DNA of 64,000 nucleotides from an uncultured virus (IMG/VR IMGVR_UViG_3300005253_000213). Taxonomy: Duplodnaviria; Heunggongvirae; Uroviricota; Caudoviricetes. The stretch is from IMG/VR virus record IMGVR_UViG_3300005253_000213, one strand, 5' to 3'. Below, piece after piece: positions 432 through 48,909 of the stretch (the stretch's first letter is position 1; each line of letters begins with the position of its first letter). Below the pieces are notes generated by a model. The model saw only the letters and a program-made list of their open reading frames with translations. It was not told the origin of the DNA and did no database searches. Position numbers and translations under genes: made by a program.

Positions 432-2234
432 CTATGCGCCGGGTTCTTCTTCGATATCGAAGCTGGGATTCGGCGGATGGACGAAGTTTGCCTGACTCTT
501 CGTAAGCTTGATGTTCAGTTGCTTCGAGAGGTCAGGATAGCGTTTGACCAGCCCGTGCCACAATCCAATACAACCGAAGTTCAGGGCATGGGCAAAGTCG
601 TCCGTCATTTTCGGGTTCCGTGTTACCAGGAAGATGTCGGCCTTGCCGTGCAGCTCGTGCCTGTCCTCCATAAGGGCAAGCAGGTCGTGGGTGATGTTCT
701 TCGAGGACTCGTACTCAGGAAGGAGGACTTGCTGAGCCTTGATGCACGTTGCCTGCAGGACCAGTGAGCGAGCCTTGTCGAGTGTGAAGTACATTCGCTG
801 GCTGAAGCCAGCTGGGCGCTTCGCTTCGACCATCTTCTTGACGGATGCGCGAACATACAGGAGCGGCATGATCTTGTTGATGGGAAGACCCGCCTGGATC
901 ATGAGTGTTTCCCGTATCGCGCCAGCGCCACCATAGTCGTGACAAAAGAGGTGGCAACGAAAAGCACGAAACATATCCATCAGCTGCTTGGCTTCTTCAT
1001 GGTGCGTGTAGGCCGAGTGCGTTCGTTCCGTGTAGACGACCTCGGTTTTGCCCGTACGCATGTTGTAGCCGACGACCGCCGCAGTCGTTGTCGAGATCAT
1101 GCTCTCACCGCCACCGCCCCAGTCGACGCCGAGGGTGATGAACCGATACTTGCCGGTTGAAATGACATCGAGAGCAATGCGGCGCTCGTTTTTGTGCAGA
1201 ACAGAAGCGTTGCGAATGTCTGTGAGGGTCACCAGCTTGACGCCGGTGTCACAACTCTCGCCGAGCACTTCGTTCATGAACATCTGATGGTTGAAGCCGG
1301 CCCGGCCGTCACGCTTGGCCAGGAGCTCCAGCCACTTCTCAGATGGCTCGACGGGACATCGACCCGGTCGATCTGGATCTTCATAGTGCATCGGAAGGAT
1401 GATCTGCGGAACGTGGTAGCCACAATCTGTTGTGCGCCGCATTGGTACGGCGTGAACCCAGCGACCACGTCTTGGATTGATTAGCCTTTCGCACTTCGCA
1501 CAAATTGGACCCATGGGGCCGATCATCTTCAACAGATGATATTCGACGCCTGGGACATTTTCATGGTTGCACGCACTACAGCGGACGACCCATTCCGCCT
1601 GTGAAGATTCCTCCCACATCACCTGAATGGTGTTGTCGAGGGTCTTGGGCGTGCCAAAGAAACGCTCGATGCCAAGTCGTGAGGCGGACATACACTCACG
1701 AATGATCGGCACAAAGTCGATATCGATGTCCTGGATCTCATCGTAGTTGATCGCATCAACGGAGAGTCCACGGATACGATCGGCATCGAGGAATGCGAAT
1801 GAAAAGAACATACGAGACTCATTGAGGAAGGTCTTCTGGAGGACGGAGTTCTCGACGCGCTTGCTGATAAGCAGGTCGCGGATGAGGCTGTTCTCGATGA
1901 AGGGCTTCACGTAATTGGTTGAGATACGCCGGACCTGCTCGTACCTCGGAGCTACGAAGAGTAGCGCGAAGTGCGGCTGGGCGCCGGTATGGAGTACACC
2001 CTGAGCCGACATGTTCGTTGTTTTCGAGACCTGCCTTCCGCATTTGAAGAGGCTTCGTTTCGCAAGCACGAGACTGTAGATCGGCTCGAACGGCGGGTAG
2101 TTCACAAGACTGTAGGGTTGCCCTTTCAATGACAGAATGGGAAGCGCCGGAATGAACGATCGTGTCGCTCTGGCCTTGTAGAGGTCAGTGAGTGTCTTGA
2201 TGCGATTGCTGGTTTCCTTGGCTGTCAGCTCCAT
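432..2234 (-). CDS. terL: Phage terminase large subunit (GpA-like)
   Basis: 600 aa; GRQVSKTT Walker A, YDEIQD Walker B, FGTP coupling motif, CxxC zinc pair, GVDWG RNase H-like nuclease, C-terminal DDFAHAL. Confidence 0.85.
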   Translation of the reverse strand: MELTAKETSNRIKTLTDLYKARATRSFIPALPILSLKGQPYSLVNYPPFEPIYSLVLAKRSLFKCGRQVSKTTNMSAQGVLHTGAQPHFALLFVAPRYEQVRRISTNYVKPFIENSLIRDLLISKRVENSVLQKTFLNESRMFFSFAFLDADRIRGLSVDAINYDEIQDIDIDFVPIIRECMSASRLGIERFFGTPKTLDNTIQVMWEESSQAEWVVRCSACNHENVPGVEYHLLKMIGPMGPICAKCERLINPRRGRWVHAVPMRRTTDCGYHVPQIILPMHYEDPDRPGRCPVEPSEKWLELLAKRDGRAGFNHQMFMNEVLGESCDTGVKLVTLTDIRNASVLHKNERRIALDVISTGKYRFITLGVDWGGGGESMISTTTAAVVGYNMRTGKTEVVYTERTHSAYTHHEEAKQLMDMFRAFRCHLFCHDYGGAGAIRETLMIQAGLPINKIMPLLYVRASVKKMVEAKRPAGFSQRMYFTLDKARSLVLQATCIKAQQVLLPEYESSKNITHDLLALMEDRHELHGKADIFLVTRNPKMTDDFAHALNFGCIGLWHGLVKRYPDLSKQLNIKLTKSQANFVHPPNPSFDIEEEPGA

Positions 2235-2397: not shown

Positions 2398-3051
2398 ATG
2401 AAAGAAAAGAGATGTCGAGACTGTGGGGAATCCAAGCCTTTGACGGAGTTCTACAAACACTCGGGCTGTAAGTTTGGTCGGCATAGCAGATGTAAAGTAT
2501 GCTTGCGAAAAGAGAACACAACCGATAAGCGAAGAGCCAGACATCGACGATACTATCGATGTCATCGCACCACTATTCTTCAAAGGCTAAGGGAGCAATA
2601 TGCAGCGGATCCGGCCTACCGCGAGAAGAAGCGCAAGCTAGAACAAGAGTCACGACAGCGCAATTTGGAGAGTTGCCGTAAACGCGGTCGGGAGTACTAC
2701 GTCCGAAATCGCGACAAAATTCTGAAGCGACGGCGTGTACAGCAACTTACTCCAGCGCAGTTAGCACAAAAGAGGCATCGAGGACGTGAGAATTATCAAC
2801 AAACTCGCGTTGCTCGTCTTTGTAGGAAATACAGCATAACCCGTGCACAGTATGATCGGTTGCTACAGCGAAGTCAGGGACGGTGTGAGTTGTGCAGCCA
2901 ACAAGTCAGTCTGTGTGTGGATCACAACCATAAAACAGGGCACGTACGTGGCATGCTCTGTAGGTACTGCAACTCAGCGCTCGGCCTCCTTGAGTCGCGT
3001 GGATTATCATCTCAACAACTCGCGCGTTACTTGCGGAGGAAGAGTGTTTGA
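2398..3051 (+). CDS. Endonuclease VII-type HNH homing endonuclease
   Basis: N-terminal CxxC...CxxC, Arg-rich linker, CELC...VDHNHKTGHVRGMLCRYCN; AAGGAGG RBS. Confidence 0.9.
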   Translation: MKEKRCRDCGESKPLTEFYKHSGCKFGRHSRCKVCLRKENTTDKRRARHRRYYRCHRTTILQRLREQYAADPAYREKKRKLEQESRQRNLESCRKRGREYYVRNRDKILKRRRVQQLTPAQLAQKRHRGRENYQQTRVARLCRKYSITRAQYDRLLQRSQGRCELCSQQVSLCVDHNHKTGHVRGMLCRYCNSALGLLESRGLSSQQLARYLRRKSV

Positions 3052-3076: not shown

Positions 3077-3301
3077 ATGGCGACACGAAGCTCAATGTTG
3101 TATCTGCGACGCAAGAAACACGTCAGCGATCTTCGCCGGCCGCGCCCGCAGTTCGCAACAAACAGTCTGAGCTCACACTTTCGTGAGCATGTACCACTTC
3201 CCGAACTTCGGAATGTGGAAGACCCCATGGCGCGGCTGGCGACCAGAGCGATAGAGGAGACGCCAGCTCATGAAAATGGAGAAGACTGCTGTCCGTCCTA
3301 G
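3077..3301 (+). CDS. Hypothetical protein
   Basis: GGAGG RBS; co-oriented with neighbours. Confidence 0.5.
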   Translation: MATRSSMLYLRRKKHVSDLRRPRPQFATNSLSSHFREHVPLPELRNVEDPMARLATRAIEETPAHENGEDCCPS

Positions 3302-3458
3302 CGAGGAATTTCTCTCGCTTACGTTTTTGGGCATGATCGCAGGTACGACAATCCTGGCGATCGTTGCCAAGTCGGTGCTCGTATTCGTTGGCGGTGTGGT
3401 GTTGACGCTCGCGCTCCAACGAAAGCTCGTTCAGGGATTCAACAGCACACAGAACTAG
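3270..3458 (+). CDS. Small membrane protein
   Basis: Two hydrophobic segments; GAGGAG upstream; stop codon overlaps the first base of the tmRNA. Confidence 0.5.
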   Translation: MKMEKTAVRPSEEFLSLTFLGMIAGTTILAIVAKSVLVFVGGVVLTLALQRKLVQGFNSTQN

Positions 3459-3525
3459 GGGGTGAACTGATTTCGACGTGTCGGTAGAGAGCCGATGCTG
3501 CGTGCCGTGGTGCCGGAGGCCACGT

Positions 3526-4080
3526 GTTACCTTCGGCTGTTCTTCGGATAGCGTAGGAGGAAGAGCTTGAATACGCAGAGGCTGATCAGAGCATTCAAGG
3601 CAGGTGAGTCCGTATTGTCCCTGTCGCGGCGTACCGAGCACACCAGGTACGCGATTACAGGGGCTCTGATAGATGCAGGCGTGCTCACTCGGAAAAGGCG
3701 TAAGAAGCCAGATTCGCGTGGGCGCTATCGTTGTTCGGGGTGCGGAAAGTGGTTTCTCCCGAAGGATATGCCCCGATTTCGATACTCTGAGTATCAATGT
3801 TCCGGTTGTGTTCTGGACAAGCAACAGAATCGGAAAGATCTTCCGGACTACGCCGCTCTTGTTGAGCGTTATGGAAATCGCTGCGCTATTTGCGGTTGCA
3901 AAGCGGGTCATACTAGCAAGCGAGGTATAAAGGCTCGCTTTGCTGTTGATCACTCCCATCGTACGGGGAGGATTCGCGGCTTGCTTTGTGGTCGCTGCAA
4001 CAGGGGTCTTGGATTCTTCGGGGATTCGGTGAAGAATCTGCAAAGCGCAATACGCTATCTGAAGAACAGTCGAGGGTAGC
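3526..4080 (+). mobile_element. Intervening sequence in tmRNA pseudoknot 1 with 30-nt complementary termini
   Basis: 3526-3555 GTTACCTTCGGCTGTTCTTCGGATAGCGTA pairs over all 30 positions with 4051-4080 TACGCTATCTGAAGAACAGTCGAGGGTAGC (26 Watson-Crick + 4 G-U). Confidence 0.85.
3567..4079 (+). CDS. Endonuclease VII-type HNH endonuclease inside the tmRNA
   Basis: AGGAGG 3555-3560 then TTG start; CAICG...VDHSHRTGRIRGLLCGRCNRGLG..DS...AIRYL. Confidence 0.9.
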   Translation: MNTQRLIRAFKAGESVLSLSRRTEHTRYAITGALIDAGVLTRKRRKKPDSRGRYRCSGCGKWFLPKDMPRFRYSEYQCSGCVLDKQQNRKDLPDYAALVERYGNRCAICGCKAGHTSKRGIKARFAVDHSHRTGRIRGLLCGRCNRGLGFFGDSVKNLQSAIRYLKNSRG

Positions 4081-4415
4081 CTAGAAAACACCGGCAAAAC
4101 CTTTAGCTGCCAATGGTGAAGTGAACACCATCGAGGATCTGGAGAAGATCTGGGCCAGCGCACCGGCTCCGATCGAGGCTCCGGCCCTCCTCGCTGCCTA
4201 GCCGACAGCGAGTAACCCCGCCCCTCGGACGCACGACCGGGGGGAAGGACATAGTGTTGACGCTCGGAAAGACGGGTGACAAGAGGGAAAGACCCTCGTC
4301 AGATGCTGCCGAGAGCTGTAGCGACGACCTGCCAAATCTCGGCTACGCACGTAGATGCCCGGCTTGAATCCTTCGCGGACGCGGGTTTGATTCCCGCCAC
4401 CTCCACCAATCTAGT

Positions 4416-4450
4416 ATAGCAGGAGCGTCCAATGTGGGCGCTCCTGCTAT
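4416..4450 (+). terminator. 15-bp hairpin just downstream of the tmRNA
   Basis: ATAGCAGGAGCGTCC-AATGT-GGGCGCTCCTGCTAT followed by CTTT. Confidence 0.65.
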
Positions 4451-4789
4451 CTTTAGATACCGGGAGGGGAACACCTCTCTCTAACGCGGCAGAGAAAGGA
4501 GTGCAAATTGCAGATAGGGCAGACAGTGTACTGCCTCGCAACGACGTCCTGCATTGCAACGCCGGGGGTGCACGACTGGGTGGTCATCTCCGGTAGGGTA
4601 ATTTCGTTCGATGAGGACACGGTGTGCATTTGTAAAGTCCGTGCGCTCGTTGGAAGTACAGCGGAGATCGATTTTGCGGATCGCAATACCACTTTCGACA
4701 CGCGCGAGGCTGCCGAAGCGGTCTGCCAGGAGAGGAATGCGGTGCTTCAGAAAGAGGCCGCAGAGAAAGCCAAGGGAGGAAGCTGAAAC

Positions 4790-23923: not shown

Positions 23924-25648
23924 ATGAAGGCCATTCACATCGGCAAGTCAAGATCGAAGCGGTTCACACTGCCGCCTGATTTCGTGACGGAAACCGCTGC
24001 TATCCTGGCACGCCGGGGTGGTGGCAAGACGTACACGGGCAATGTAGTGGCCGAAGGCTTCCTGGAGAACGGGTTCCAGGTTGTGGTCATCGATCCGTGC
24101 AACGCGTGGTGGGGACTGCGCTCTTCGGCCAACGGTAAATCGCCTGGCTATCCGATCGTTATCTTCGGGGGGCCGCGCGGCGATCTGCCGCTTGAAGTCC
24201 CGATGGCTCGTGGAATCGCGGATCTCGTGGCTGAGAATCCGGACTTCTCATGCGTGCTCAGTCTGCGGCATCTGCGCAAAGGTCCGCAGAAGCAGTTCGT
24301 CTGCGAGTTTGCTGAACAGCTCTTCCACCGAAAGGGTGAAGAGAAGCTGGCGACGGCCGTGCACATCTTCATCGACGAGGCTCACCGTTTCGCTCCGCAG
24401 TTCGTGCGCGCGGACGACGCAAAGGTGATGGGTGCAGTTGGGGATCTGGTACTGGGCGGGCGCCAGGCCGGCATCGGTGTCACCCTGATCACGCAGCGGA
24501 GCGCGAAACTCAACAAGGACGTGCTCACGCAGGCCGAGCTCTTGATCGTTGGACAGATCACCGGTCCCCAGGACAAGAAGGCCGTTCGCGAGTGGATCGA
24601 GGAGAACGCCGACGCCGTGGAGCAGGGCGAGTTCATCACCTCGCTCGCGAAGCTGAAGCGTGGCGAATTCTGGTTCTGGTCGCCGGCAAAGCTGGATGTA
24701 TTTGCTCGCGTGGATGTAAGGAAGCGCACCACGTTCGACTCGTCAGCCACGCCGAAGACGGGCAGACGGCCCAAGTCGCCGAAGCGGGTCAGCAAGGTGG
24801 ATCTGGCGAAGCTCCAGGAGACACTCCAGCAGAATCTCCAGGAGATCGAAGAGAGAGATCCGAAAGCGCTCAAGCGACGGATAGCTGAACTGGAGCGGGC
24901 GGCACGAAAGAGCCAGCCGGCGAGCGTCACACTGCCGGCGCCGACTCTCGATAAGGCGTCACTCAAGAAAGCGGTGGATAGCGCGCTCGACGAGCGCGAT
25001 GACCAGTGGCGCATATCCGTGGAAGGATTCATGACGACACTGGACGAGCGGCTGCGTACCGCTACCGCCAGCGTTTCATCGATCGAGATCAAGGCTCCGG
25101 CGCGAAGCAAGTTCAAGTCGATTCAGATGCACGTGCCAAATGTGCAGGTGGATGTGCGTCCGCCTGTGTCTACGCTGCCTCCGGTGACGGATGACATGCC
25201 GCTGAACAAGTGCGAGATTGCGCTTCTCGGCGTTCTCGTGAGTCGTGATCGTCCGGTCAGCAAGAAGCTGGTAGCTCTGCAATCAGGCTACTCAATCAAG
25301 AGCGGTCACTTCAACAACACGCTCTCCGGGCTGAGAAAGCGGGGGCTGATCGGCGGTACCGATAACATCGTGATCACGCTGGGCGGCAGTCAAGTGTTCG
25401 CTGCAAGCGGCGCACAGGCGATAACGGTCGACATCGATCACTGGATCGCTCACGGCAGCAAGTGCACGCGCGCGATTCTCCAGAAACTCAAGGACAACCG
25501 TGATCCCATGAGTCGGCAGGAGATCGCCAACGCAACCGGTTACAGCGCCACGAGCGGTCACTTCAACAACACGCTCTCCAAACTGCGTGGACTGCTGCTT
25601 ATCGAAGGCACTGACTTTGTCAGCCTGTCGGCGGAACTCTTCGGATAG
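23924..25648 (+). CDS. HerA/FtsK-superfamily ATPase (DUF87-like) with duplicated C-terminal winged-helix motifs
   Basis: ARRGGGKT, VIDP, IFIDEAHRFAP, GRQAGIG, ITQR; SGHFNNTLS twice. Confidence 0.8.
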   Translation: MKAIHIGKSRSKRFTLPPDFVTETAAILARRGGGKTYTGNVVAEGFLENGFQVVVIDPCNAWWGLRSSANGKSPGYPIVIFGGPRGDLPLEVPMARGIADLVAENPDFSCVLSLRHLRKGPQKQFVCEFAEQLFHRKGEEKLATAVHIFIDEAHRFAPQFVRADDAKVMGAVGDLVLGGRQAGIGVTLITQRSAKLNKDVLTQAELLIVGQITGPQDKKAVREWIEENADAVEQGEFITSLAKLKRGEFWFWSPAKLDVFARVDVRKRTTFDSSATPKTGRRPKSPKRVSKVDLAKLQETLQQNLQEIEERDPKALKRRIAELERAARKSQPASVTLPAPTLDKASLKKAVDSALDERDDQWRISVEGFMTTLDERLRTATASVSSIEIKAPARSKFKSIQMHVPNVQVDVRPPVSTLPPVTDDMPLNKCEIALLGVLVSRDRPVSKKLVALQSGYSIKSGHFNNTLSGLRKRGLIGGTDNIVITLGGSQVFAASGAQAITVDIDHWIAHGSKCTRAILQKLKDNRDPMSRQEIANATGYSATSGHFNNTLSKLRGLLLIEGTDFVSLSAELFG

Positions 25649-31969: not shown

Positions 31970-32044
31970 GTGGTGTCCGTAGGGAAGAGGTGGTGCGGGG
32001 AGTCTGAAGGGGCTCCTCGTGCCGCTGTTATGGAGGGAATAGTC

Positions 32045-32548
32045 ATGAAGAAATGTACGAAGTGTGGACGCAAGAAGGCACTGATCGCGTTCTCTAAGCG
32101 TTCGACCGCGAAGGATGGTAAGCAAGGTACTTGCCAAGAATGTCAGAATAAGCAAAGCAGGGCGCGCTACAAAGCGCACCCAGAGAAGCAGCGCGCACAC
32201 AACGCTCGTTACTATCAGGTACACAGAAATGCCATACTAGTTTACCACAAAGTTCACTATTGGCAGAATAGGGCGTATTATCGCAATCATCAGCTCAAAG
32301 CTAAGTATGGTATCACTGTAACGGAGTTCGATACTATGCGGCGAAGGCAGAAGGATTGCTGTGCGCTCTGTAAGCAGCCTATGACGTTTGGTGACAAAGT
32401 CCGGCCTCTTCAGGCAGTTGTAGATCATTGTCACAAGACTGGGCGCATTCGCGGGCTTATTCATGCTCGCTGCAACACACTTCTAGCACGTGCAGAGGAT
32501 AGCATTGTCCGGCTGAAGCAGGCCATCAGATACCTGCGGAGAAAATAA
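32045..32548 (+). CDS. Endonuclease VII-type HNH endonuclease
   Basis: KYGIT...CALC...VDHCHKTGRIRGLIHARCN. Confidence 0.9.
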   Translation: MKKCTKCGRKKALIAFSKRSTAKDGKQGTCQECQNKQSRARYKAHPEKQRAHNARYYQVHRNAILVYHKVHYWQNRAYYRNHQLKAKYGITVTEFDTMRRRQKDCCALCKQPMTFGDKVRPLQAVVDHCHKTGRIRGLIHARCNTLLARAEDSIVRLKQAIRYLRRK

Positions 32549-34891: not shown

Positions 34892-37020
34892 TGCGACTGA
34901 AACGAATGAGTGCCTCGAACTTCTGTCAGCATCGCGAGCTGACAGTTGAGTTCCCGCCCGGTATTACCGGCATTCTTGGCCCGAACGGCGTTGGCAAGTC
35001 GAACGCCATCAAGGCCGTTCGATTTGCTCTGATCGGTGACTCGGGGAATGCCGGTACCAAGGTGGATGATCTCAACTGGCAGGCGGCTGCAGCGGGAGAG
35101 TCCGGCGCTGTCGAGCTTGTGTTCGAGCAGTCCGGCACCGAAGGCAAGATCAAGCGATTCGTGAACAACGCCAGGGCCAGCCTGAAGTTCGGCGAGATCA
35201 AGGCCAATAGCGTGAGTGCCGTCAATAGGCATATGGGTACGATCCTCGGTATACCGGAGCGTACACTGAAGGACATCGTTTTCGTCATGCAGGGCGCAAT
35301 CGAGAGTATTCTCTTCGAGCGGCCTGCCGATCGGGCGAAGAAGTTCCAGGGCTTGTTCGGCACGGAGAGTGCGGAGCGGCTGCGTGATTTCCTGCTGCAG
35401 GAGGTCAACAAGTTGCCGACTGCCGACGTAGATGAGCGCGTGGAGCGGCTACAGAAGGAGCTCGACGTCGATGTCGATCCACCGCTACGTGAGCTTACGA
35501 AGAAGCAGGCGAGCGTTGCCGCGGCTCTCAAGGGTTTCGATCGTGATGCACGTGAGGCTGTCATTGCGAAGTTCGAGACGGCTGTGCAGATCGGTCAACA
35601 GCTTACGGAGCTGAACGAGCGGATCATCATGCTTACAACGAACGTGACTCCCGAAGTCGCTCACGTTGCGGAGTTGCAGCAACAGGCCGATGATGCGGAG
35701 AAAGAGACCAGCCAGCTGACGAGTAGAGCTGACGAAGCTCGCGCCAAGCTGTCGAATCTCGACGCCGCTCGACGGGCGCACGAAACATACGAGCAGCTGC
35801 GGGGCGAGGCTGAAAAGCTGGAAGACGTACTTCGTCAACCAGTGCCGATGTCACCGGGAATCGACCGCGAGAAGTTGGAGGCTGGTTTCGAGGCGCTTCA
35901 CAGCATGAAGGTGACGCTTGAGCCGAAGCGCAGTTTCGTGGAGACATTCAAGGGCGGGCAAGGTACGGTTCAGTGTCCGACCTGTTTGCAGGACGTCCAC
36001 GAGGCAGATCAGCTGGCTGCGCAGTTCGAAGCCGAGGTAGCTCAGAAAACTACTGAGTTTGCTGCGGTTGATCAGCAGCTACGCGAGGGCAGCTCAGCAC
36101 TGGTCGAATACGAGCGTGATGTAGAGTTGGATTGCGCTCGGAAGGATACAGCGCGCGAGCGGCTGCAAAGTGTTCACGGAACGCTTTCAACGCTGGGCGT
36201 CACTACGTACGATGGTGCCGAAGCAGGTGCGCTCCAGATCGTTGTCGACGACTTCAGCGGAAAGCTCATGGTACTGAAGAACGTTCGTGATGAGCTATCC
36301 AGGTTGCAGGTGGAGCTTGCTCGCAAGAAGAGCGAATGTCGCACGCTCGAAGAGCGGCAGTGCAGTTTGCGTGAACAGCTGCAGGATCGTCCGACGGCGG
36401 ACCAGTACAAGCGGGCTAAGGACGGACTGGAGATGGTGGCCAGTGCGGAGGCTGAGCTTGGCAATATCGAAGGGCAGCTCTACCAGCTTCGCAATCGGCG
36501 TGGTGCAATCCTCAAGGAGTTGGAGCTGCTCAAGCAGCAGACCGAGAAGACAGAGGCCGTGAAGAAGTACAAGGATCTCTGCGAGCGGGCGCGAACATTG
36601 TTCCATCGTGATTGTCTGCCGTTGACGGTCACTCGGGCATTCCTTGCGAGCTTGAACGTGAAGATCCAGGAATATCTGACGCTATTTGGTGCGCCGTTCA
36701 GCTGTCAGATCAAGGACGATCTTACGGTTAGCTGCAACTTCCCAGGCGGCGGTGAGCAGTCGGCGGAGCGGTTGAGTGGAGGGCAACGAGTTGTTTTGGG
36801 GATCGCTTTCCGTTTTGCGGTCTACCAACTCTTTGCAGCCGATCTGGGTTTCATGGTTCTTGACGAACCGACGGCGTTTTTGGATGACGACAGAGTTCAA
36901 AGCGTCGTCGAGGTTATGCAGTCTGTCCGGCGCTATGTGCATCAGACTGGCATGCAGTTGATTGTGGTAACGCACGAAGTGGAGCTAGTTGCTGCGTTTG
37001 ACCACACGGTTCGCTTGTAG
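34891..37020 (+). CDS. sbcC: SbcC/Rad50-like SMC ATPase
   Basis: GPNGVGKS, Q-loop MQG, CPTC zinc hook, LSGGQ signature, VLDEPT, VTH. Confidence 0.92.
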   Translation: MRLKRMSASNFCQHRELTVEFPPGITGILGPNGVGKSNAIKAVRFALIGDSGNAGTKVDDLNWQAAAAGESGAVELVFEQSGTEGKIKRFVNNARASLKFGEIKANSVSAVNRHMGTILGIPERTLKDIVFVMQGAIESILFERPADRAKKFQGLFGTESAERLRDFLLQEVNKLPTADVDERVERLQKELDVDVDPPLRELTKKQASVAAALKGFDRDAREAVIAKFETAVQIGQQLTELNERIIMLTTNVTPEVAHVAELQQQADDAEKETSQLTSRADEARAKLSNLDAARRAHETYEQLRGEAEKLEDVLRQPVPMSPGIDREKLEAGFEALHSMKVTLEPKRSFVETFKGGQGTVQCPTCLQDVHEADQLAAQFEAEVAQKTTEFAAVDQQLREGSSALVEYERDVELDCARKDTARERLQSVHGTLSTLGVTTYDGAEAGALQIVVDDFSGKLMVLKNVRDELSRLQVELARKKSECRTLEERQCSLREQLQDRPTADQYKRAKDGLEMVASAEAELGNIEGQLYQLRNRRGAILKELELLKQQTEKTEAVKKYKDLCERARTLFHRDCLPLTVTRAFLASLNVKIQEYLTLFGAPFSCQIKDDLTVSCNFPGGGEQSAERLSGGQRVVLGIAFRFAVYQLFAADLGFMVLDEPTAFLDDDRVQSVVEVMQSVRRYVHQTGMQLIVVTHEVELVAAFDHTVRL

Positions 37021-37054
37021 TATAGGCGAGAAAGTACGAAAAGGAGATGAGGCA

Positions 37055-37648
37055 ATGGTACAAGCTCTTGCAGATAGACGACAGTATGGTCGTCAGTATT
37101 ATGCTGAGCATTGTGATGCGCTAAATGCCAGGAAGCGACGGCGCTACGCCGAGCATCGCGACGGACTCAGCGCTCAGAAGCGTCGGGCATATCGAGAGAA
37201 CCCTGACAAGTACGTTCGGCGTAGCCGACGATGGCGCCAGCAGCATCTCAAGCAACATCAGGAGAGCAATCGGCGCTATTACAGCAAAAACCGTGAGCGC
37301 ATTCTGGCGGCTAGTAAGCAGAGGCACTGGCAGAAGAAGGCAGAAGATCCATGTGCGCTTACTAGGGCGGCGCGCGGGCGGTATCTCAAACGTGAGTATG
37401 GGCTGTCGTTAGAGCAATACGACCGATTGCTGCGCAAACAGAAGAATCTGTGTGCGCTGTGTCGGCAGCCGATGAAGCACGGTGGGCGCATAACGGCTAA
37501 GCACGCCGTAGTAGACCACGATCACAAGACAGGGCGCGTTCGTGGCATTTTACACGCACAGTGCAATAGCTGGCTGGCGCTTCTCGACAATGATTCTCGC
37601 CTGCTCTTCCGCCTTGCCAAGTACCTCAACAAGTTCCGGAAAAGCTAG
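37055..37648 (+). CDS. Endonuclease VII-type HNH endonuclease
   Basis: YGLSLEQY...CALC...VDHDHKTGRVRGILHAQCN. Confidence 0.9.
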   Translation: MVQALADRRQYGRQYYAEHCDALNARKRRRYAEHRDGLSAQKRRAYRENPDKYVRRSRRWRQQHLKQHQESNRRYYSKNRERILAASKQRHWQKKAEDPCALTRAARGRYLKREYGLSLEQYDRLLRKQKNLCALCRQPMKHGGRITAKHAVVDHDHKTGRVRGILHAQCNSWLALLDNDSRLLFRLAKYLNKFRKS

Positions 37649-39623: not shown

Positions 39624-39699
39624 GCACCTGTAGCTCAGTAGGTAGAGCACCTGCGTGAAGTGCAGGGTGTCGCTGGTTCAATTCCGGCCGGGTGCACCA
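39624..39699 (+). tRNA. tRNA-Phe(GAA)
   Basis: Cloverleaf GCACCTG...CGGGTGC-ACCA; anticodon loop GTGAAGT. Confidence 0.88.
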
Positions 39700-39701
39700 G
39701 A

Positions 39702-39773
39702 TCCGGCGTGATGTAATAGGTAGCATGGCTGACTGTTACTCAGTCTGTCCTGGTTCGAGTCCAGGCGCCGGAG
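39702..39773 (+). tRNA. tRNA-Asn(GTT), no encoded CCA
   Basis: TCCGGCG...CGCCGGA-G; loop CTGTTAC. Confidence 0.88.
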
Positions 39774-39787
39774 CTCAGAAAGAACAC

Positions 39788-39863
39788 TGACTCCTAGTTC
39801 AATTGGTAGAACATCCGGCTCTGGACCGGAAGGTTCGAGGTTCGAGCCCTCGGGAGTCAGCCA
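39788..39863 (+). tRNA. tRNA-Gln(CTG)
   Basis: TGACTCC...GGAGTCA-GCCA; loop CTCTGGA. Confidence 0.9.
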
Positions 39864-39884
39864 GATAAGAAAGAGGAGGAAGCA

Positions 39885-40613
39885 ATGTCGAAGAAGGGTT
39901 TCACAGAGATCGTAGCGATCGTGGATCGCTCAGGTTCGATGCAGGAGATTCGCGCCGACGCGATGGGCGGCTTCAATGCGTTCCTCGCGGACCAGCAGAA
40001 GCTGCCGGGCGAGGCGACGATGACCGTGGTGCTGTTCGATCACGAGTACATCGTGCTTCATAGCAACGTGAAGGTGCAGGACATCGCGCCGCTCGACGAG
40101 TCGACTTACATTCCTCGCGGGCAGACCGCGCTCTACGACGCGATTGGCCGTGCGGTGAACGAGGTCAAGGGCCGAATCGACGGCATGGCCGAGGCCGACA
40201 AGCCGGAAGGCGTCATCTTTGCCATCCTGACCGATGGCATGGAGAACGCCAGTGCCGAGTTCAGCAAGGATGGCGTCACGAAGATGATTGCGGAGCAGCA
40301 GAAAGAGGGGCGTGAGTTCGCGTTCCTTGCGGCGGGTCAGGACGCCTTCGAGATCGGCCGAGGAATCGGGATCAAGCAGCAGGCGGTCGCGAACTTCGTT
40401 GGCTCGGCAAAAGGCGTGCGGGCGGCCTTCAGCGGCGTCAGTCACTACGCGGCAGAATATCGCTCGGGTGGCAGCCGGCAGCTCATGGCGAATAGCTGCT
40501 CGATGCAGAGCATGGTCGACGACGCGATGGCCGTAGGCGTTTCGCCTGACGACCTGGCCAAGGAGATCGCCAAGGAGGACGCTGACGCAGAAGGCTCGGC
40601 GAACAAGCCGTGA
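39885..40613 (+). CDS. VWA domain protein
   Basis: VDRSGSM, GQTALYDAIG, LTDGMENAS. Confidence 0.9.
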   Translation: MSKKGFTEIVAIVDRSGSMQEIRADAMGGFNAFLADQQKLPGEATMTVVLFDHEYIVLHSNVKVQDIAPLDESTYIPRGQTALYDAIGRAVNEVKGRIDGMAEADKPEGVIFAILTDGMENASAEFSKDGVTKMIAEQQKEGREFAFLAAGQDAFEIGRGIGIKQQAVANFVGSAKGVRAAFSGVSHYAAEYRSGGSRQLMANSCSMQSMVDDAMAVGVSPDDLAKEIAKEDADAEGSANKP

Positions 40614-40621
40614 AAGGAAGT

Positions 40622-40699
40622 GGGGGCGTAGCTCAGCCAGGAATGAGCGCCTGCCTTGCAAGCAGGATGGCGCGAGTTCGAATCTCGCCGCCTCCACCA
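40622..40699 (+). tRNA. tRNA-Ala(TGC)
   Basis: GGGGGCG...CGCCTCC-ACCA with G3.U70; loop CTTGCAA. Confidence 0.92.
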
Positions 40700-40719
40700 A
40701 TAGCGACTAGGAGAGCACC

Positions 40720-41283
40720 ATGAAACGAACCTTTCTTGCGCGGTGTGTGTCGACAGCGCTAACACAACGCGAGATAGCCAGGCTCGTGGGGTGCTCACAG
40801 ACGACAGTGCGGTACTGGCTCAGAAAGCATGGACTCAAAACGATCCGAAGACCGCGGAAAGTATACCATTGCCTAGCGTGTGATAAGGTATTGGACCGCG
40901 ACACCAAACGATGGAACAAGTTCTGTAATACTGCCTGCTTTCAGGAGCACTGCTATCGCACCTACATCGCAGGTTGGCTTCGCGGGAAGGAGCGCGGGGG
41001 CGGAGCCGACGGCTCTGTCTCGGATTACGTACGCAGATACTTGTTCGAGCAAGCTGAAGGTAAGTGCGTGAAGTGCGGGTGGGCTGAGATCAATCCGGTA
41101 ACTCAGAAGAAGCCGCTGGGAGTGAATCACAAGGACGGTAACTCTAGGAATCACCGGCTGAGCAACTTAGAGTTACTTTGCCCGAACTGCCATAGTCTGA
41201 CGCCGACGTTTGGAAGCCTCAATAATGGGCGAGGTAGACATCACCGTCGGAAGGCTGCACTACTGAAGCGTGTGGCAGGATAA
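40720..41283 (+). CDS. HTH-HNH endonuclease directly downstream of tRNA-Ala
   Basis: TQREIARLVGCSQTTVRYWL; CVKCG...VNHKDGNSRNH...NLELLCPNCHS. Confidence 0.9.
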   Translation: MKRTFLARCVSTALTQREIARLVGCSQTTVRYWLRKHGLKTIRRPRKVYHCLACDKVLDRDTKRWNKFCNTACFQEHCYRTYIAGWLRGKERGGGADGSVSDYVRRYLFEQAEGKCVKCGWAEINPVTQKKPLGVNHKDGNSRNHRLSNLELLCPNCHSLTPTFGSLNNGRGRHHRRKAALLKRVAG

Positions 41284-41817
41284 GGATGCCACGAGCATAA
41301 TGGCAGCAGCCAACAAGAACGACGACGCTTGCTTGGAAGAGATGCTTCAGCGACTTGCTGCGGCACAGATGCAGCAGCAGGAGTACCGCATACTGCAGCA
41401 GATGCAGATGCAGGAACAGGCCAATGAGCAGCGCCATCGGATTGGCGGTGCTGGCATTTGGACTGACCTGCTTGGTATACCAGTTAGGCCGCCGCAAGGC
41501 GAGTGCATCAAGGATGTGGAGGTCGAGATTGTCGAACCAAAGCGACTCCCACCCCCAGACGAAGGACAATCTGACTGAACAGCTTGTCCAGCGTCACTGG
41601 GCTGGTGGGGTGAGCTACAGGCTTGATGACGAAAGAGCCATGGCACTGGCAGAACTGGTCTGTAAGATATCAGACCGCGGCTATGGCGATGACGAGATTC
41701 CGAGCGTACTGCGAGATCCCGAGGTGCTGGAACAGTTCGGCTTTACGCCGGACATGACACACCTTGTGGCGGCACTGCGAGTGGTTCGTCGGCGGATAAG
41801 TGAGGCTGCTGGGTAAC

Positions 41818-41893
41818 TGCCCCGTGGTCCAGTTGGAATGGATGGCTGGCTTTGACCCAGCAGACTCAGGTTCAATCCCTGACGGGGCAGCCA
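41818..41893 (+). tRNA. tRNA-Gln(TTG)
   Basis: TGCCCCG...CGGGGCA-GCCA; loop CTTTGAC. Confidence 0.9.
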
Positions 41894-41962
41894 AGGAAGG
41901 CACGGGCAATGCAGCCCGCTCTGCGAGTTCTGCGAAATCCGAACAGAGCCCGAAGGAGGGTC

Positions 41963-42280
41963 ATGAGAGAAAAGTCTGTCGACGCACAACCTGAACCCAG
42001 CGTCGAGCTCAACTTCGACCCGGATGTACCGAAGGAGAGGGCCGACGAACTCTACATCTTCATAAGGCAATGCCTTGCGGAGTGTGTCGTACTTATGGAC
42101 AAGTACGCGAAAACGGGTGATCACGGCGATGCGCACCGTATCGTCAACACGGTTATGCAGCTCAAGACAGCGCTTGGCAGACCGGAGTGGTCGCGGATGG
42201 TATGTCGGGCGATCTCGGGTGATAGGATGCTGTCCGAGCAGCGGCGTGAGATCGTACGGAAGGTACTGGAGGACATCTGA
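41963..42280 (+). CDS. Hypothetical protein
   Basis: AAGGAGG RBS. Confidence 0.6.
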   Translation: MREKSVDAQPEPSVELNFDPDVPKERADELYIFIRQCLAECVVLMDKYAKTGDHGDAHRIVNTVMQLKTALGRPEWSRMVCRAISGDRMLSEQRREIVRKVLEDI

Positions 42281-42535
42281 TGGGACGGCGAATCTGGAGC
42301 TGTCCTAACCGACAGTATGCGGAGGGCTTTCTCGACGGCGTTGAGTTCGTAAACGATTCGGCAATCAAGGTCGAACGCTGCGTCCAGACTCACGTGGGGA
42401 CATACGTCTTCACGCTTGAGGATGACAACTTTGACGGCATGGAAGCATTTCTTCCGTCGAGTGAGCATCCGCAGCCGACTGCTGTCGCACTGGAGCAGTT
42501 GCGAGACGACTCAGAAGGAAGAGGCGGCGCATGAT

Positions 42536-42612
42536 GGGGGCCATGGCGCAACCGGCCGAGCGCATCTGACTGTGACTCAGAAGATATGGGTTCGAGTCCC
42601 ATTGGCCCTCCA
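42536..42612 (+). tRNA. tRNA-His(GTG)
   Basis: G-1 + GGGGCCA...TGGCCCT-C; loop CTGTGAC. Confidence 0.88.
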
Positions 42613-42615
42613 TAT

Positions 42616-42682
42616 CCGGGGCGGCGCATGCGTGCGACCAAGTAATCCGCGTTGCGAGAACTCTCTTCGCGGCCCCGGTCCA
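42616..42682 (+). ncRNA. tRNA-like mini-RNA lacking an anticodon stem
   Basis: CCGGGGC/GCCCCGG 7-bp stem + T + CCA; CGCA-TGCG-TGCG and GCGAG-AACTCTC-TTCGC arms. Confidence 0.5.
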
Positions 42683-42684
42683 GT

Positions 42685-42771
42685 GCCGAGGTGGTGGAAC
42701 TGGTAGACACGCGTGGCCTAAACCCGCGTGCTCGTGAGAGCGTGGAGGTTCGACTCCTCTCCTCGGTACCA
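42685..42771 (+). tRNA. tRNA-Leu(TAA) with C33
   Basis: Long variable arm; loop CCTAAAC; ACCA end. Confidence 0.85.
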
Positions 42772-42772
42772 A

Positions 42773-42849
42773 GCGCGTATAGTGTTCAACGGCCAGCACG
42801 TCAGCTTTCCATGCTGAAGGTGTAGGTTCGAATCCTACTATGCGCTCCA
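42773..42849 (+). tRNA. tRNA-Gly(TCC)
   Basis: GCGCGTA...TATGCGC-TCCA; loop TTTCCAT. Confidence 0.9.
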
Positions 42850-42876
42850 GGCAACTACGCTCAGAAAGGAGCGATC

Positions 42877-43332
42877 ATGTCGGACGTTCGTGTCATTCAC
42901 TTTCGTTGTCGAGAAGGTGGGAAGGTGCTGACGAAGGGCGGCGTGACTGTCGCTGTGCGTACAACGGAGACAAGACAAGAGGCGGCATACGCGATCTGCA
43001 GTGCAGCCGACGGGTTCAACCCGATCGAGGGCAGAAAGCGTGCGCTGGCTCGGTTGAACAGCAAGCCGAAGAACGGGCGGAGAAACAGCCGTCTTTTCGG
43101 TGCGATCGTTTCTTCTATGCCACTCGCCGATAAAGGTGACGAGCGAGCTTTGCGAAGGCTGGGATTTCAGAAAGAGATGGAGATGCTGGCCAAGAAGCCT
43201 GACGATACTGTCGTCTTCGCCTGGGACGTTGCAGCGTTCGGTGTCATGCGCATGAAGGGCGGCAAGCCGGAAGACATACAGAGACTTCAGACGACGCTTG
43301 CAGCATATCCGCGCGAGAAAGTGCCGGCGTAG
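42877..43332 (+). CDS. Hypothetical phage protein
   Basis: KGGVTV...AICSAADGFN..EGRKRALAR; AAGGAG RBS. Confidence 0.65.
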   Translation: MSDVRVIHFRCREGGKVLTKGGVTVAVRTTETRQEAAYAICSAADGFNPIEGRKRALARLNSKPKNGRRNSRLFGAIVSSMPLADKGDERALRRLGFQKEMEMLAKKPDDTVVFAWDVAAFGVMRMKGGKPEDIQRLQTTLAAYPREKVPA

Positions 43333-43398
43333 CTCAATTGGCTAGAGCAACCGGTTTGTACCCGGAAGATAGGGGTTCGAGTCCTCTCGTCGGCTCCA
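43323..43398 (+). tRNA. tRNA-Thr(TGT); overlaps the last 10 nt of the upstream CDS
   Basis: GCCGGCG...CGTCGGC-TCCA; loop TTTGTAC. Confidence 0.9.
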
Positions 43399-43412
43399 AC
43401 ACAGGAGGTACA

Positions 43413-43727
43413 ATGCTGGATCCTCACGAACAGAAGGATGAAGTCGACAAACTGCTGCTCCGTATTCGTGCAGCTCGTGCGGTCAAGAGCCGGCGTATCA
43501 ACAAGGCCGCAATGGAGCTTGTGGATGCGGCCTGTTTCTCCGACACTGACACCATGGTCGAGCTGGCTCGCCAGATCGTAGAGGACGCGAAAGAGCGCGG
43601 TGCGATGACCAAGTGGGTGAAAGCGATCAAAGCTGCTCACAAGCAATTTCGGGAGGAGTATGACACGCTCATGCAGCTTCCAGAGGAATCGGTAGAGTTG
43701 GTAGCACTGGAAGGGGAGCACACGTGA
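43413..43727 (+). CDS. Hypothetical protein
   Basis: AGGAGG RBS. Confidence 0.6.
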   Translation: MLDPHEQKDEVDKLLLRIRAARAVKSRRINKAAMELVDAACFSDTDTMVELARQIVEDAKERGAMTKWVKAIKAAHKQFREEYDTLMQLPEESVELVALEGEHT

Positions 43728-44590: not shown

Positions 44591-44641
44591 TCGGGGTGTG
44601 GGTCATTACGCACTTGGAACTGGAAAAGTGGTTTACAAGTA

Positions 44642-44712
44642 CGGGCTGAAGTGTTAGGGTTGCACGCCTGGTTTGGGGCCAGGGGGTCAAGGTTCGAGTC
44701 CTTGCAGCCCGA
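44642..44712 (+). tRNA. tRNA-Pro(TGG), no encoded CCA
   Basis: CGGGCTG...CAGCCCG-A; loop TTTGGGG. Confidence 0.85.
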
Positions 44713-44727
44713 CTTGGAACTACTAAA

Positions 44728-48305: not shown

Positions 48306-48853
48306 TGAACAACGAAGTGATCGAGCGTGCGGTGGTAGACATGAAGGAGTTGTACACTCGCTTGCGCGGACTTACCGCGCGCAACGTCGGGCATTCAGCG
48401 CAGCATGAAGAGAAGTGGTTCGCACTTGCATATGAGCTTATCGTTCGCAACCTCAATCCATGTCGCTACATCAAGTGGGCGTACGACTTCTTTCGCCGCA
48501 CCAATCCCGACGTGTACGTTACCATGATCACGTCTCTGAAGATGGTTCGTGTCTTCGCGAAAGATCATCCGGACTATGAGGCTGAGGTGCGGTTGGCAAT
48601 ACGACTTCAGGCCGATACCATGAACAGGCAACTTGCGCTCGGTCGATCTCCACAGGAAATTTTGGAGGATAAGTTCCTTGAGCTTGGCCCCGTTTTTAGG
48701 TACATTGTGGCTCTTCAGTTCAACTTGCCAGCTCACGCGGACCAGCTGCGCGGACCAGCTGAGTTAGATCTGGCTTGTGAACCTCTCTACCACCGGCTCA
48801 TTGGTGGTATGTTGCGGAGAGCGAAAAAGTGCAAGAGCCACTGTGTCTTCTGA
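48305..48853 (+). CDS. Hypothetical protein in the replication module
   Basis: Coupled to the helicase stop. Confidence 0.6.
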   Translation: MNNEVIERAVVDMKELYTRLRGLTARNVGHSAQHEEKWFALAYELIVRNLNPCRYIKWAYDFFRRTNPDVYVTMITSLKMVRVFAKDHPDYEAEVRLAIRLQADTMNRQLALGRSPQEILEDKFLELGPVFRYIVALQFNLPAHADQLRGPAELDLACEPLYHRLIGGMLRRAKKCKSHCVF

Positions 48854-48909
48854 TGGTCCTTCATAAGGCTATTGCCTTTGTTCCAGTACATACCGAGGAG
48901 GAGTCTGTC

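What the first reader, a model, noticed from the sequence alone, without database searches (positions are those of the whole stretch)
3458..4408. Phage tmRNA carrying a homing endonuclease looped out of pseudoknot 1 by a fully paired 30-bp RNA helix
Seen: intact tmRNA termini, PK1 stems and tag ORF, with about 555 nt inserted between the two halves of PK1. The insert ends pair over all 30 positions, and the four non-Watson-Crick positions are all G-U, which points to selection on RNA rather than DNA pairing. The 3' arm is the last codons of the endonuclease (IRYLKNSRG*), so the 5' arm is an antisense copy of the gene's own coding tail. The AGGAGG RBS starts at the last paired base. The ORF and arms fill the insert, leaving no room for a group I or II core. 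Established: rRNA intervening sequences are excised by RNase III from such terminal helices without religation, and two-piece tmRNAs can function. Inference: this is a ribozyme-free selfish element that neutralises its insertion by extrusion or host-nuclease excision, giving a two-piece, spliced or extra-large tmRNA. I do not recognise this arrangement as described.
Basis: partly seen in the sequence, partly recalled or inferred. Interest (0 to 1): 0.92.

Follow-up and report, generated by a model that had tools for sequence, protein, structure and literature searches.

The report
Homing-endonuclease insert splitting tmRNA pseudoknot 1
A selfish DNA-cutting gene sits inside a phage's ribosome-rescue RNA (tmRNA) gene with no self-splicing intron around it, its two ends pairing into a long RNA helix, and related inserts sit at the same spot in two planctomycete bacteria, which points to a previously undescribed form of the tmRNA gene.

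Summary
The window holds a collinear tmRNA gene (3458-4408). It is interrupted in the linker of pseudoknot 1 by a 559-nt insert (3526-4084, not 3526-4080). The insert is nearly all one ORF, a 170-aa Endonuclease VII-type (His-Me) nuclease. Its first 30 nt pair with the last codons of that ORF: 30 of 30 positions, 26 Watson-Crick and 4 G-U.

New evidence:
- Three more homologous inserts lie at the same tmRNA site, in one metagenome contig and in the only tmRNA gene found above the Rfam cut-off in each of two Gemmataceae-family MAGs.
- All four have a 23-30 bp terminal helix. The arm sequences differ, but all 20 shared pair columns show changes on both sides.
- About 240 Endonuclease VII genes outside tmRNA genes have no such helix.
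- Contigs from other DNA runs include a 665-nt contig, from a study other than the window's likely source, that spans both junctions with no differences. They also include an insert-free allele joining 3525 to 4085.
- No group I or group II intron core was detected, and only 46 nt of the insert are non-coding.

The element is best read as a ribozyme-free homing element that behaves like an rRNA-type intervening sequence. The fate of the RNA (RNase III cleavage into two pieces, retention or splicing) is inferred, because no RNA data were available. Six literature searches found no description of this arrangement.

The parts
3458..3525 (+). tmRNA 5' segment: acceptor 5' strand (G3 opposite U gives the G-U alanine identity pair), P2 5' strand, and the PK1 stem-1 hairpin (3506-3511 / 3519-3524) whose loop carries the stem-2 5' strand (3512-3516)
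   Evidence: Same layout as the insert-free Gemmataceae-family genes printed.
3526..4084 (+). 559-nt mobile insert (intervening sequence)
   Evidence: an X3 contig joins 3525 to 4085 with no ambiguous bases ('both' = 0). An X8 contig stops matching the window one base into the insert (at 3526) and continues with letters like those of the 3' segment.
3526..3555 (+). 5' arm of the closing helix, non-coding and antisense to the nuclease gene's last codons
3555..3560 (+). AGGAGG Shine-Dalgarno-like motif, 6 nt before the TTG start. Its first base is the last paired base of the helix.
   Evidence: (direct reading)
3567..4079 (+). 170-aa homing-endonuclease candidate: N-terminal three-helix domain, a four-Cys pair (C56/C59/C78/C81), and a C-terminal Endonuclease VII (His-Me finger) domain
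   Evidence: Weak fold matches to beta-beta-alpha-Me nucleases.
4051..4080 (+). 3' arm of the closing helix: the last 9 codons, the stop codon and one further base
4085..4408 (+). tmRNA 3' segment: A-rich PK1 linker, PK1 stem-2 3' strand (4091-4095), tag ORF 4109-4201, downstream pseudoknot region, T-arm and acceptor 3' strand ending in CCA
4416..4450 (+). hairpin after the CCA end, terminator-like
   Evidence: stem at 4434-4447 followed by a T-rich tail

Best explanation
The 559-nt insert is a ribozyme-free homing element.

Shown:
- It carries an Endonuclease VII-type nuclease gene.
- It sits at one fixed site in tmRNA genes, directly 3' of the PK1 stem-1 strand.
- It is present or absent among close relatives, with no target-site duplication.
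- Its two ends form a 23-30 bp helix that is kept by compensatory change although the arm sequences diverge. The non-coding 5' arm tracks the coding tail of the nuclease gene.

Inferred:
- The nuclease cuts insert-free PK1 DNA, and the element is copied in by repair.
- In the transcript the helix pulls the two halves of PK1 together so that the tmRNA can fold.
- Because a perfect duplex of two or more turns is a standard RNase III substrate, the helix is most likely cut without religation, as in rRNA intervening sequences. This would leave a two-piece tmRNA held together by the acceptor stem, P2, PK1 stem 2 and the helix stub.
- The nuclease would be translated from uncut precursor, because a cut inside the 3' arm would remove its stop codon.
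For: Same site, four times. The window, L009, L089 and L090 all carry a full-length homologue of the nuclease, followed at once by an Rfam tmRNA match. The junctions printed place each insert right after the conserved stem-1 strand and before the A-rich linker. L089 bases 1375-1444 match an insert-free relative (L198) at positions 1-70 with 93% identity, and L089 2003-2320 matches L198 73-393.

Helix. The window has 30/30 paired, L089 24/26, L090 23/23 and L009 24/25. Over the 20 shared columns, 77 of 80 cells are paired, against 31-38 of 80 when one strand is slid by 1-3 nt. All 20 columns show a change on both sides. Arm identity between the distantly related elements is only 2-9 of 20; only the L089/L090 pair is close, at 16-17 of 20.

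Specificity. Among 243 Endonuclease VII ORFs in the fetched loci, the best tail-versus-upstream helix has at most 16 pairs, apart from the four tmRNA-borne elements. Three of them score 31, 24 and 23. L089 scores 16 with one mismatch allowed and 24/26 with two. The control maximum is 16. The four paralogues in the same window score 10-12, against controls of 10-15.

Mobility. An insert-free joint 3525->4085 and a contig carrying the insert occur in the same run, X3. The full-length orthologue is found in 2 of 252 family genomes and in 1 of 401 sampled phylum genomes. Of the 128 tmRNA genes detected in 151 family genomes, 126 are uninterrupted at 91-170 bits.

The tmRNA probably still works. 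The interrupted gene is the only match above the cut-off in G001 and in G002. It lies in chromosomal context, with SRP54, Rho and ThyX on the same contigs. G002 keeps smpB. The tags match the family consensus.

The nuclease is maintained. Between L089 and L090, pN is 0.19 and pS 0.68, and the Cys, Asp, His and Asn motif positions are invariant.

No ribozyme. No intron or ribozyme family was matched at E<=10 or at E<=0.1 in the homologues.

RNase III. Two rnc homologues are present in G002. Excision of an ORF-bearing rRNA IVS by RNase III is documented for Coxiella (PMC4990558, abstract), and cleavage of rRNA IVS without ligation is stated in PMC11270868 (passages).
Against: - No RNA evidence of any kind. 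No RNA run was listed, so cleavage, retention and splicing cannot be told apart.
- A long helix might be needed only for kinetic closure across about 500 nt, without any cleavage.
- RNase III and smpB were not found in G001, which is an incomplete MAG.
- The window's insert has U at -1 and G as its last base, as group I introns do, although this is expected by chance about once in 16.
- There are only four elements, and two of them are close relatives.
- Exact insert boundaries in L009, L089 and L090 are uncertain by a few nucleotides.
- The Rfam tmRNA model could not be run on the insert-deleted window sequence.
- Activity and target of the nuclease are untested.
Confidence: 0.6

Rival explanations
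1. The insert is never removed. The helix simply extrudes it, and the tmRNA works as one extra-large RNA of about 950 nt with a side domain on PK1.
For: The MFE and centroid folds keep all tmRNA helices together with the 30-bp helix. The closing helix and its covariation are equally expected under this model.
Against: By inference from established RNase III specificity, a perfect 23-30 bp duplex in a cell that has RNase III (two homologues in G002) should be cut. All four helices are longer than closure alone would need. A 559-nt appendage on PK1 would have to be tolerated on the ribosome.
Confidence: 0.2
2. The insert is a true intron. It is spliced and the segments religated, either by an unrecognised ribozyme embedded in the coding sequence or by a protein cut-and-ligate pathway.
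For: The window's insert follows U3525 and ends in G4084, which fits the group I boundary rule. The group I introns so far described in tmRNA genes all lie in the T-loop, and the authors note that other sites may have been missed (PMC11915505, passages).
Against: No intron or ribozyme family was matched at E<=10 in 3300-4600 or at E<=0.1 in L009, L089 and L090. Only 46 of 559 nt are non-coding, and 30 of those are in the helix. The nucleases are 36-42% identical, which leaves little room for a conserved RNA core. The insert's first nucleotides pair with its 3' end rather than forming a P1 helix with the exon. The base directly after the conserved stem-1 strand is G, not U, in L009, L089 and L090; their exact boundaries are uncertain by a few nucleotides.
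Confidence: 0.08
3. The insertion has inactivated the tmRNA gene. The helix serves only the element, either as protection or translational control of the nuclease mRNA, or as DNA-level terminal inverted repeats of a transposon-like element.
For: In L089 and L090 the likely ribosome-binding site lies inside the 5' arm, so the helix could regulate translation. Terminal inverted repeats flanking one ORF resemble an insertion sequence.
Against: The interrupted gene is the only tmRNA gene found in G001 and G002, and smpB is kept in G002. Tag and structure are intact in all four. Free-standing paralogues lack any such helix, so the helix goes with residence inside an RNA gene. There is no target-site duplication and the site is fixed. 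There is no transposase, only PF02945. Arm sequences are not conserved, with 2-9 of 20 positions identical. Non-Watson-Crick positions favour sense-strand RNA, 8 G-U against 2 A-C.
Confidence: 0.07

Closest known systems
Intervening sequences (IVS) of bacterial 23S rRNA, cut out by RNase III without religation, including the ORF-bearing Coxiella IVS
   Same: Both are extra sequence inside a structural RNA gene. Both are closed by a long stem made from the element's own ends, are scattered sporadically among relatives, and contain no ribozyme. The host RNA tolerates the element (PMC4990558, abstract; PMC11270868, passages).
   Different: The host gene here is tmRNA, at the PK1 linker, not an rRNA helix tip. 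The ORF is an intact nuclease under purifying selection, which explains mobility. The 3' arm of the stem is the coding tail of that ORF. RNase III cleavage has not been shown here.
Group I introns in tmRNA genes (the 'intron' gene form), some carrying LAGLIDADG homing endonuclease genes
   Same: Both are mobile interruptions of the tmRNA gene that can carry a homing endonuclease (PMC11915505, passages).
   Different: Those all lie in the T-loop, have a recognisable group I core, and carry LAGLIDADG genes in 36 of 883 sequences. This insert lies in PK1, has no detectable core, and carries an Endonuclease VII-type gene.
Circularly permuted tmRNA genes that give two-piece tmRNA
   Same: They show that tmRNA can work as two base-paired pieces once an intervening segment is removed (PMC11915505, passages).
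   Different: The gene here is collinear, not permuted. The only tmRNA_permuted match is a sub-threshold 28.8-bit hit to the T-arm. Any break would fall inside PK1 and be made through a duplex, not by tRNA-processing enzymes.
Endonuclease-bearing, non-intron insertion sequences in rRNA genes of CPR bacteria
   Same: These are homing-type nuclease ORFs (all the GIY-YIG ones) inside structural RNA genes, within inserts that match neither intron class (PMC11270868, passage).
   Different: They sit in rRNA, not tmRNA, and belong to a different nuclease family. The passages read report no closing helix built from the ORF tail.
Free-standing Endonuclease VII / HNH homing endonuclease genes of phages
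   Same: Same nuclease family. The window holds four further copies lying between genes.
   Different: Those lie between protein genes and have no terminal helix. The tmRNA copy is closer to the tmRNA-borne copies elsewhere (106-124 bits, full length) than to its own paralogues (47-51 bits, nuclease domain only).

Membership tests
tmRNA (Rfam RF00023) | tRNA-like domain: 7-bp acceptor stem with a G-U third pair, T-arm, CCA end | tested here: met
   Direct reading of 3458-3464 against 4398-4404. Rfam alignment of the T-arm and 3' end. ARAGORN domains. Fold.
tmRNA (Rfam RF00023) | Tag reading frame with a GCN resume codon, a hydrophobic ...LAA end and a stop | tested here: met
   Tag at 4109-4201, 30 codons ending ALLAA*. 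It is longer than the usual 10 aa.
tmRNA (Rfam RF00023) | PK1 just upstream of the resume codon | tested here: met
   Stem 1 is 3506-3511 / 3519-3524 and stem 2 is 3512-3516 / 4091-4095. The layout matches the insert-free family genes. It is contiguous only once 3526-4084 is looped out.
tmRNA (Rfam RF00023) | Score above Rfam's gathering cut-off (47 bits) | tested here: inconclusive
   The intact window gives 34.8 bits, 3' part only. L089 and L090 give 50.6 and 53 bits. The tool cannot be given the insert-deleted sequence.
Homing endonuclease gene (His-Me / Endonuclease VII type) | Nuclease domain with intact metal- and zinc-binding motif | tested here: met
   PF02945 at 67.7 bits against a cut-off of 23.6. 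Invariant C106, C109, D128, H129, H131, C141, C144, N145.
Homing endonuclease gene (His-Me / Endonuclease VII type) | Present or absent at one fixed site of a conserved gene, without target-site duplication | tested here: met
   (joint 3525->4085, 'both' = 0).
Homing endonuclease gene (His-Me / Endonuclease VII type) | The enzyme cuts the insert-free allele near the insertion site | not testable with these tools
   Needs purified protein and PK1 DNA.
Group I intron | Conserved catalytic core (P3-P9), detectable with RF00028 | tested here: not met
   No hit at E<=10 in 3300-4600 and none at E<=0.1 in L009, L089 or L090. Only 46 nt of the insert are non-coding.
Group I intron | U before the 5' splice site and G as the last intron base | tested here: inconclusive
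   Window: U3525 and G4084 fit. In L009, L089 and L090 the base after the conserved stem-1 strand is G, and the boundaries are uncertain.
Group II intron | Six-domain structure and conserved 5' end | tested here: not met
   No Rfam group II family among the matches at E<=10. The insert is too short and is almost fully coding.
RNase III-excised intervening sequence (rRNA IVS type) | The element's ends form a long duplex (about two turns or more) at the point of insertion in a structural RNA | tested here: met
   Helices of 30, 26, 23 and 25 bp.
RNase III-excised intervening sequence (rRNA IVS type) | Cut by RNase III without religation, with the host RNA functional in pieces | not testable with these tools
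   No RNA run was listed. rnc is present in G002 and was not found in the incomplete G001.
Permuted (two-piece) tmRNA gene | Acceptor piece encoded upstream of the coding piece | tested here: not met
   The gene is collinear. RF04321 gives only 28.8 bits over the T-arm.
Insertion sequence / transposon with terminal inverted repeats | Transposase gene, target-site duplication, conserved repeat sequence | tested here: not met
   Only PF02945 was found. There is no duplication. The arms are 2-9 of 20 identical between elements.

The most novel reading that the evidence does not exclude
These inserts represent a further vehicle for homing endonucleases, beside introns, inteins and free-standing genes. 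The element is a ribozyme-free 'helix-closed' intervening sequence that relies on host RNase III and creates a fourth tmRNA gene form, a collinear gene that matures into two pieces broken inside PK1. There may be a built-in feedback as well. A cut in the helix removes the nuclease's stop codon, so the excised message becomes a non-stop mRNA, which is the very substrate of the tmRNA it interrupts. Nuclease would then be made only from uncut precursor.
Probability: 0.25. Interest if true: 0.92.

Novelty: new variant of a known kind. Interest (0 to 1): 0.85.

Why it matters
- The 2025 tmRNA census recognises three gene forms: standard, T-loop group I intron, and permuted (PMC11915505, passages). 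This would be a fourth. It occurs in both bacterial chromosomes and phage-like DNA.
- Standard finders do not call the interrupted gene correctly. ARAGORN misses three of the four intact genes and calls the fourth (L090) with a false 5' end; Rfam scores them low or below cut-off. Some genomes listed as lacking tmRNA may carry such inserts.
- It suggests that a homing endonuclease can colonise an important structural RNA gene without a ribozyme. The element instead evolves an antisense copy of its own coding tail.
- This extends the rRNA-IVS principle to tmRNA and links it to a mobility mechanism.
- It gives a directly testable case of whether tmRNA tolerates a break or a large domain in PK1, which from recall is the pseudoknot closest to the resume codon.

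Tried and rejected
Searches for close relatives that found nothing:
- The whole-genome search of the window was unavailable.
- No match in GenBank phages.
- No close relatives in IMG/VR by protein or by exact DNA stretches.
- The alignment-based IMG/VR scan returned 80 Endonuclease VII loci, none a close full-length orthologue. The 10 I checked with Rfam had no tmRNA beside them.
- L096 and L157 are full-length but distant homologues and have no tmRNA match.

Eight viral loci sharing the tmRNA 3'-end motif turned out to be unrelated. Two are standard tmRNAs, one is a permuted tmRNA, and five are 77-nt tRNA-like hits.

RNA evidence: no RNA holder was listed, so expression and processing could not be examined.

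Synteny between the flanks of L089/L090 and 30 insert-free loci gave no tblastx hits. Chromosomal context was shown from gene content instead.

L009 has no PHROG hits in 5 ORFs, so its origin, phage or cell, is unknown.

The promoter scan found no sigma-70-like site in 3200-4600.

The Foldseek search of the nuclease model (mean pLDDT 77) gave only weak matches, best E 4e-3, to beta-beta-alpha-Me nucleases.

A MAFFT alignment of the four inserts did not put the 5' arms in register. RNAalifold and the count of structure pairs were therefore not used. Pairs were counted by script, anchored on each element's own helix.

The ARAGORN call after deletion is weak evidence on its own, since 2 of 17 control deletions were also called.

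Considered and rejected: misassembly, group I or II intron, permuted gene, and transposon with inverted repeats (see the membership tests).
Full report
WHAT IS IN THE WINDOW

The window is phage-like DNA. Nearly all genes lie on one strand. It encodes a large terminase (432-2234, minus strand), helicases, a family A DNA polymerase, ten tRNA genes and several Endonuclease VII-type genes. No whole genome is held for it and it has no match among GenBank phages.

Neither ARAGORN nor Rfam at gathering level reports a tmRNA. With permissive settings, Rfam finds only the 3' end of one, at 4274-4408, scoring 34.8 bits against a gathering score of 47. When a script removes 3526-4080 or 3526-4084, ARAGORN calls a 396- or 392-nt tmRNA. 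It starts at 3458, ends in CCA at 4408, and has the tag ANGEVNTIEDLEKIWASAPAPIEAPALLAA*. ARAGORN is forgiving: 2 of 17 random 559-nt deletions also gave a call. I therefore rest the case on comparison rather than on that call.

THE INSERT AND ITS HELIX

The ORF 3567-4079 has a TTG start, with AGGAGG 6 nt upstream. It encodes 170 aa with a Pfam Endonuclease_7 domain, E 8.2e-19.

Positions 3526-3555 pair with 4051-4080 at all 30 positions, 26 Watson-Crick and 4 G-U, with a duplex energy of -51.6 kcal/mol. The 3' arm is the last nine codons, the stop codon and one more base. The 5' arm is non-coding. The helix appears in both the MFE and the centroid fold of the full 951-nt precursor, together with the acceptor stem, the T-arm and PK1 stem 1 (z = -5.2 against 20 shuffles). 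Among the 25 longest of 37 inverted repeats within 1.5 kb in the 64-kb window, it is the most complementary, 89% against 70-81% for the others.

BOUNDARIES AND ASSEMBLY

Contigs of public DNA runs laid on 3300-4600 show the following.
- In run X3, which is from a study other than the likely source, a 665-nt contig covers 3496-4160 with no differences.
- A second X3 contig joins 3525 directly to 4085, with no ambiguous bases.
- In X8, a contig stops matching the window one base into the insert (at 3526) and continues with letters like those of the 3' segment.
- In X1, a 5.9-kb contig holds a related tmRNA gene without the insert.

It has no target-site duplication, and both alleles coexist in nature. 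No RNA run was listed.

HOMOLOGOUS INSERTS

The nuclease has 508 database relatives. A few of them are full-length at about 40% identity. Scans with an alignment of these (A2) returned three loci with a full-length homologue:
- L009, a metagenome contig of unknown origin;
- L089, a MAG titled Planctomycetales bacterium;
- L090, a MAG titled Gemmataceae bacterium.

All three, and none of the other 11 loci tested, have an Rfam tmRNA match starting at the end of the nuclease gene. The sequences show one architecture in all four elements. The tmRNA 5' end and PK1 stem 1 come first, then the insert directly after the conserved stem-1 3' strand, then the A-rich linker, PK1 stem 2 and the tag. After deletion of the insert, ARAGORN calls tmRNAs with the tags AEPQFSLAA*, AEPQLTLAA** and AEYNGILACAA*.

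L089 and L090 lie in genomes G001 and G002, which belong to one family.
- In each genome the interrupted gene is the only tmRNA match above the cut-off.
- The contigs carry ordinary chromosomal genes: SRP54, Rho, ThyX, Ser/Thr kinases and FtsK.
- G002 also has smpB and two RNase III homologues. Neither gene was found in G001, an incomplete MAG.

Among 151 family genomes, 128 have a tmRNA gene at E<=1e-15. Of those, 126 are uninterrupted at 91-170 bits, while G001 and G002 score 50-53 bits. L089 1375-1444 matches an insert-free relative at positions 1-70 (93% identity), and 2003-2320 matches positions 73-393. The interruption is therefore a clean insertion. The full-length orthologue is found in 2 of 252 family genomes and in 1 of 401 sampled phylum genomes.

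COVARIATION

Each element has a terminal helix that covers the end of its own ORF: window 30/30, L089 24/26, L090 23/23 and L009 24/25.
- Over the 20 pair columns shared by all four, 77 of 80 cells form standard pairs, against 31-38 of 80 when one strand is slid by 1-3 nt.
- All 20 columns show changes on both sides.
- Arm identity between the distantly related elements is 2-9 of 20; only the L089/L090 pair is close, at 16-17 of 20.
- Non-Watson-Crick positions are 8 G-U, 2 A-C/C-A and 1 C-C. This modestly favours pairing in the sense-strand RNA; 8 or more out of 10 corresponds to a one-sided binomial of about 0.055 (my arithmetic).

The helix is specific to residence in tmRNA. In 243 Endonuclease VII ORFs from all fetched loci, the best tail-versus-upstream helix has at most 16 pairs, equal to the control maximum, apart from the four tmRNA-borne elements. 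Three of those score 31, 24 and 23, and L089 reaches only 16 when a single mismatch is allowed. The four paralogues in the same window score 10-12.

The tmRNA-borne nucleases form their own group. They match each other at 106-124 bits over the full length, against 47-51 bits for the window's own paralogues. The nuclease is maintained by selection: between L089 and L090, pN is 0.19 and pS 0.68, and the Cys/Asp/His/Asn motif is invariant.

NOT AN INTRON OF A KNOWN KIND

No group I, group II or other ribozyme family is matched at E<=10 in 3300-4600, nor at E<=0.1 in the three homologous loci. Only 46 of the 559 nt are non-coding, and 30 of those form the helix. The window's boundaries (U before, G last) fit the group I rule, but this is expected by chance about once in 16. 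In the other three elements the base after the conserved stem-1 strand is G, not U, although their exact boundaries are uncertain by a few nucleotides.

MECHANISM

Shown:
- a mobile, site-specific element without target-site duplication, carrying a maintained nuclease gene;
- a closing helix under selection for pairing;
- tmRNA features that stay intact around it, including in genomes where no other tmRNA gene was found.

Inferred:
- The nuclease homes to insert-free PK1 DNA.
- In the RNA, the helix brings the PK1 halves together.
- A 23-30 bp duplex is a standard RNase III substrate, and ORF-bearing rRNA intervening sequences are removed that way without religation (PMC4990558, abstract; PMC11270868, passages). 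The most likely product is therefore a two-piece tmRNA. I put this at about 0.6.
- The alternatives are retention as an extra-large RNA (0.2), splicing by an unknown route (0.08), and an inactivated gene whose helix serves only the element (0.07).
- One consequence, also inference only: a cut within the 3' arm removes the nuclease's stop codon, so full-length nuclease can be made only from uncut precursor. In L089 and L090 the likely ribosome-binding site also lies inside the 5' arm.

COMPARISON WITH WHAT IS KNOWN

The 2025 tmRNA census (PMC11915505, passages read) lists three gene forms. It places all 883 group I introns in the T-loop, with LAGLIDADG genes in 36 of them, and notes that other sites may have been missed.

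Six full-text searches found no paper describing an endonuclease gene or an intervening sequence in a tmRNA pseudoknot. Subscription-only literature and supplements were not covered.

That is a different site and a different arrangement.

I classify the finding as a new variant of known kinds: an rRNA-type intervening sequence combined with a homing endonuclease, in a new host gene.

Noticed in passing
window 2398-3051, 31970-32548, 36989-37648, 48829-49356, 63186-63833: There are four further Endonuclease VII-type genes and one HNH_3 gene, all lying between protein-coding genes. The phage is heavily colonised by this nuclease family. None of the four Endonuclease VII paralogues has a terminal helix.
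   Followed up: partly
window 51903-54854: The family A DNA polymerase carries an N-terminal uracil-DNA-glycosylase-superfamily domain in addition to its 3'-5' exonuclease domain.
   Followed up: no
window 23924-25648: A 574-aa ORF matches a large-terminase PHROG (phrog_2666) over residues 22-253 only, in addition to the clear terminase at 432-2234 on the opposite strand.
   Followed up: no
window 39624-44713: Ten tRNA genes are interspersed with ORFs of 140-290 aa that have no Pfam match.
   Followed up: no
L001 748-824, L003 1252-1328, L006 195-271, L007 1144-1220, L008 1252-1328: Five viral contigs hold 77-nt matches to the tmRNA model (65-71 bits) that cover only the tRNA-like domain. They may be tag-less mini-tmRNAs or attachment-site fragments. 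L004 holds a permuted tmRNA.
   Followed up: no
L029 1501-1979: An Endonuclease VII-type ORF overlaps a sub-threshold group I intron match (39.5 bits, cut-off 50) in a 49-kb metagenome contig. The same nuclease family may also travel in true introns.
   Followed up: no
L299 3034-3936 (G001 contig): A reverse-transcriptase-domain ORF (RVT_1) lies directly downstream of the interrupted tmRNA gene.
   Followed up: no
L009 1440-1485: Unlike the other three elements, L009 has about 46 nt between the 5' arm and the nuclease start. This stretch includes a TATAAT-like box and a GGGAGG ribosome-binding site, so it might be a promoter of the element's own (direct reading).
   Followed up: no
family of G002: 23 of 151 family genomes gave no tmRNA match at E<=1e-15. 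This could reflect incomplete assemblies or further interrupted genes. Two genomes (G545, G463) have a second, low-scoring tmRNA-like match.
   Followed up: no
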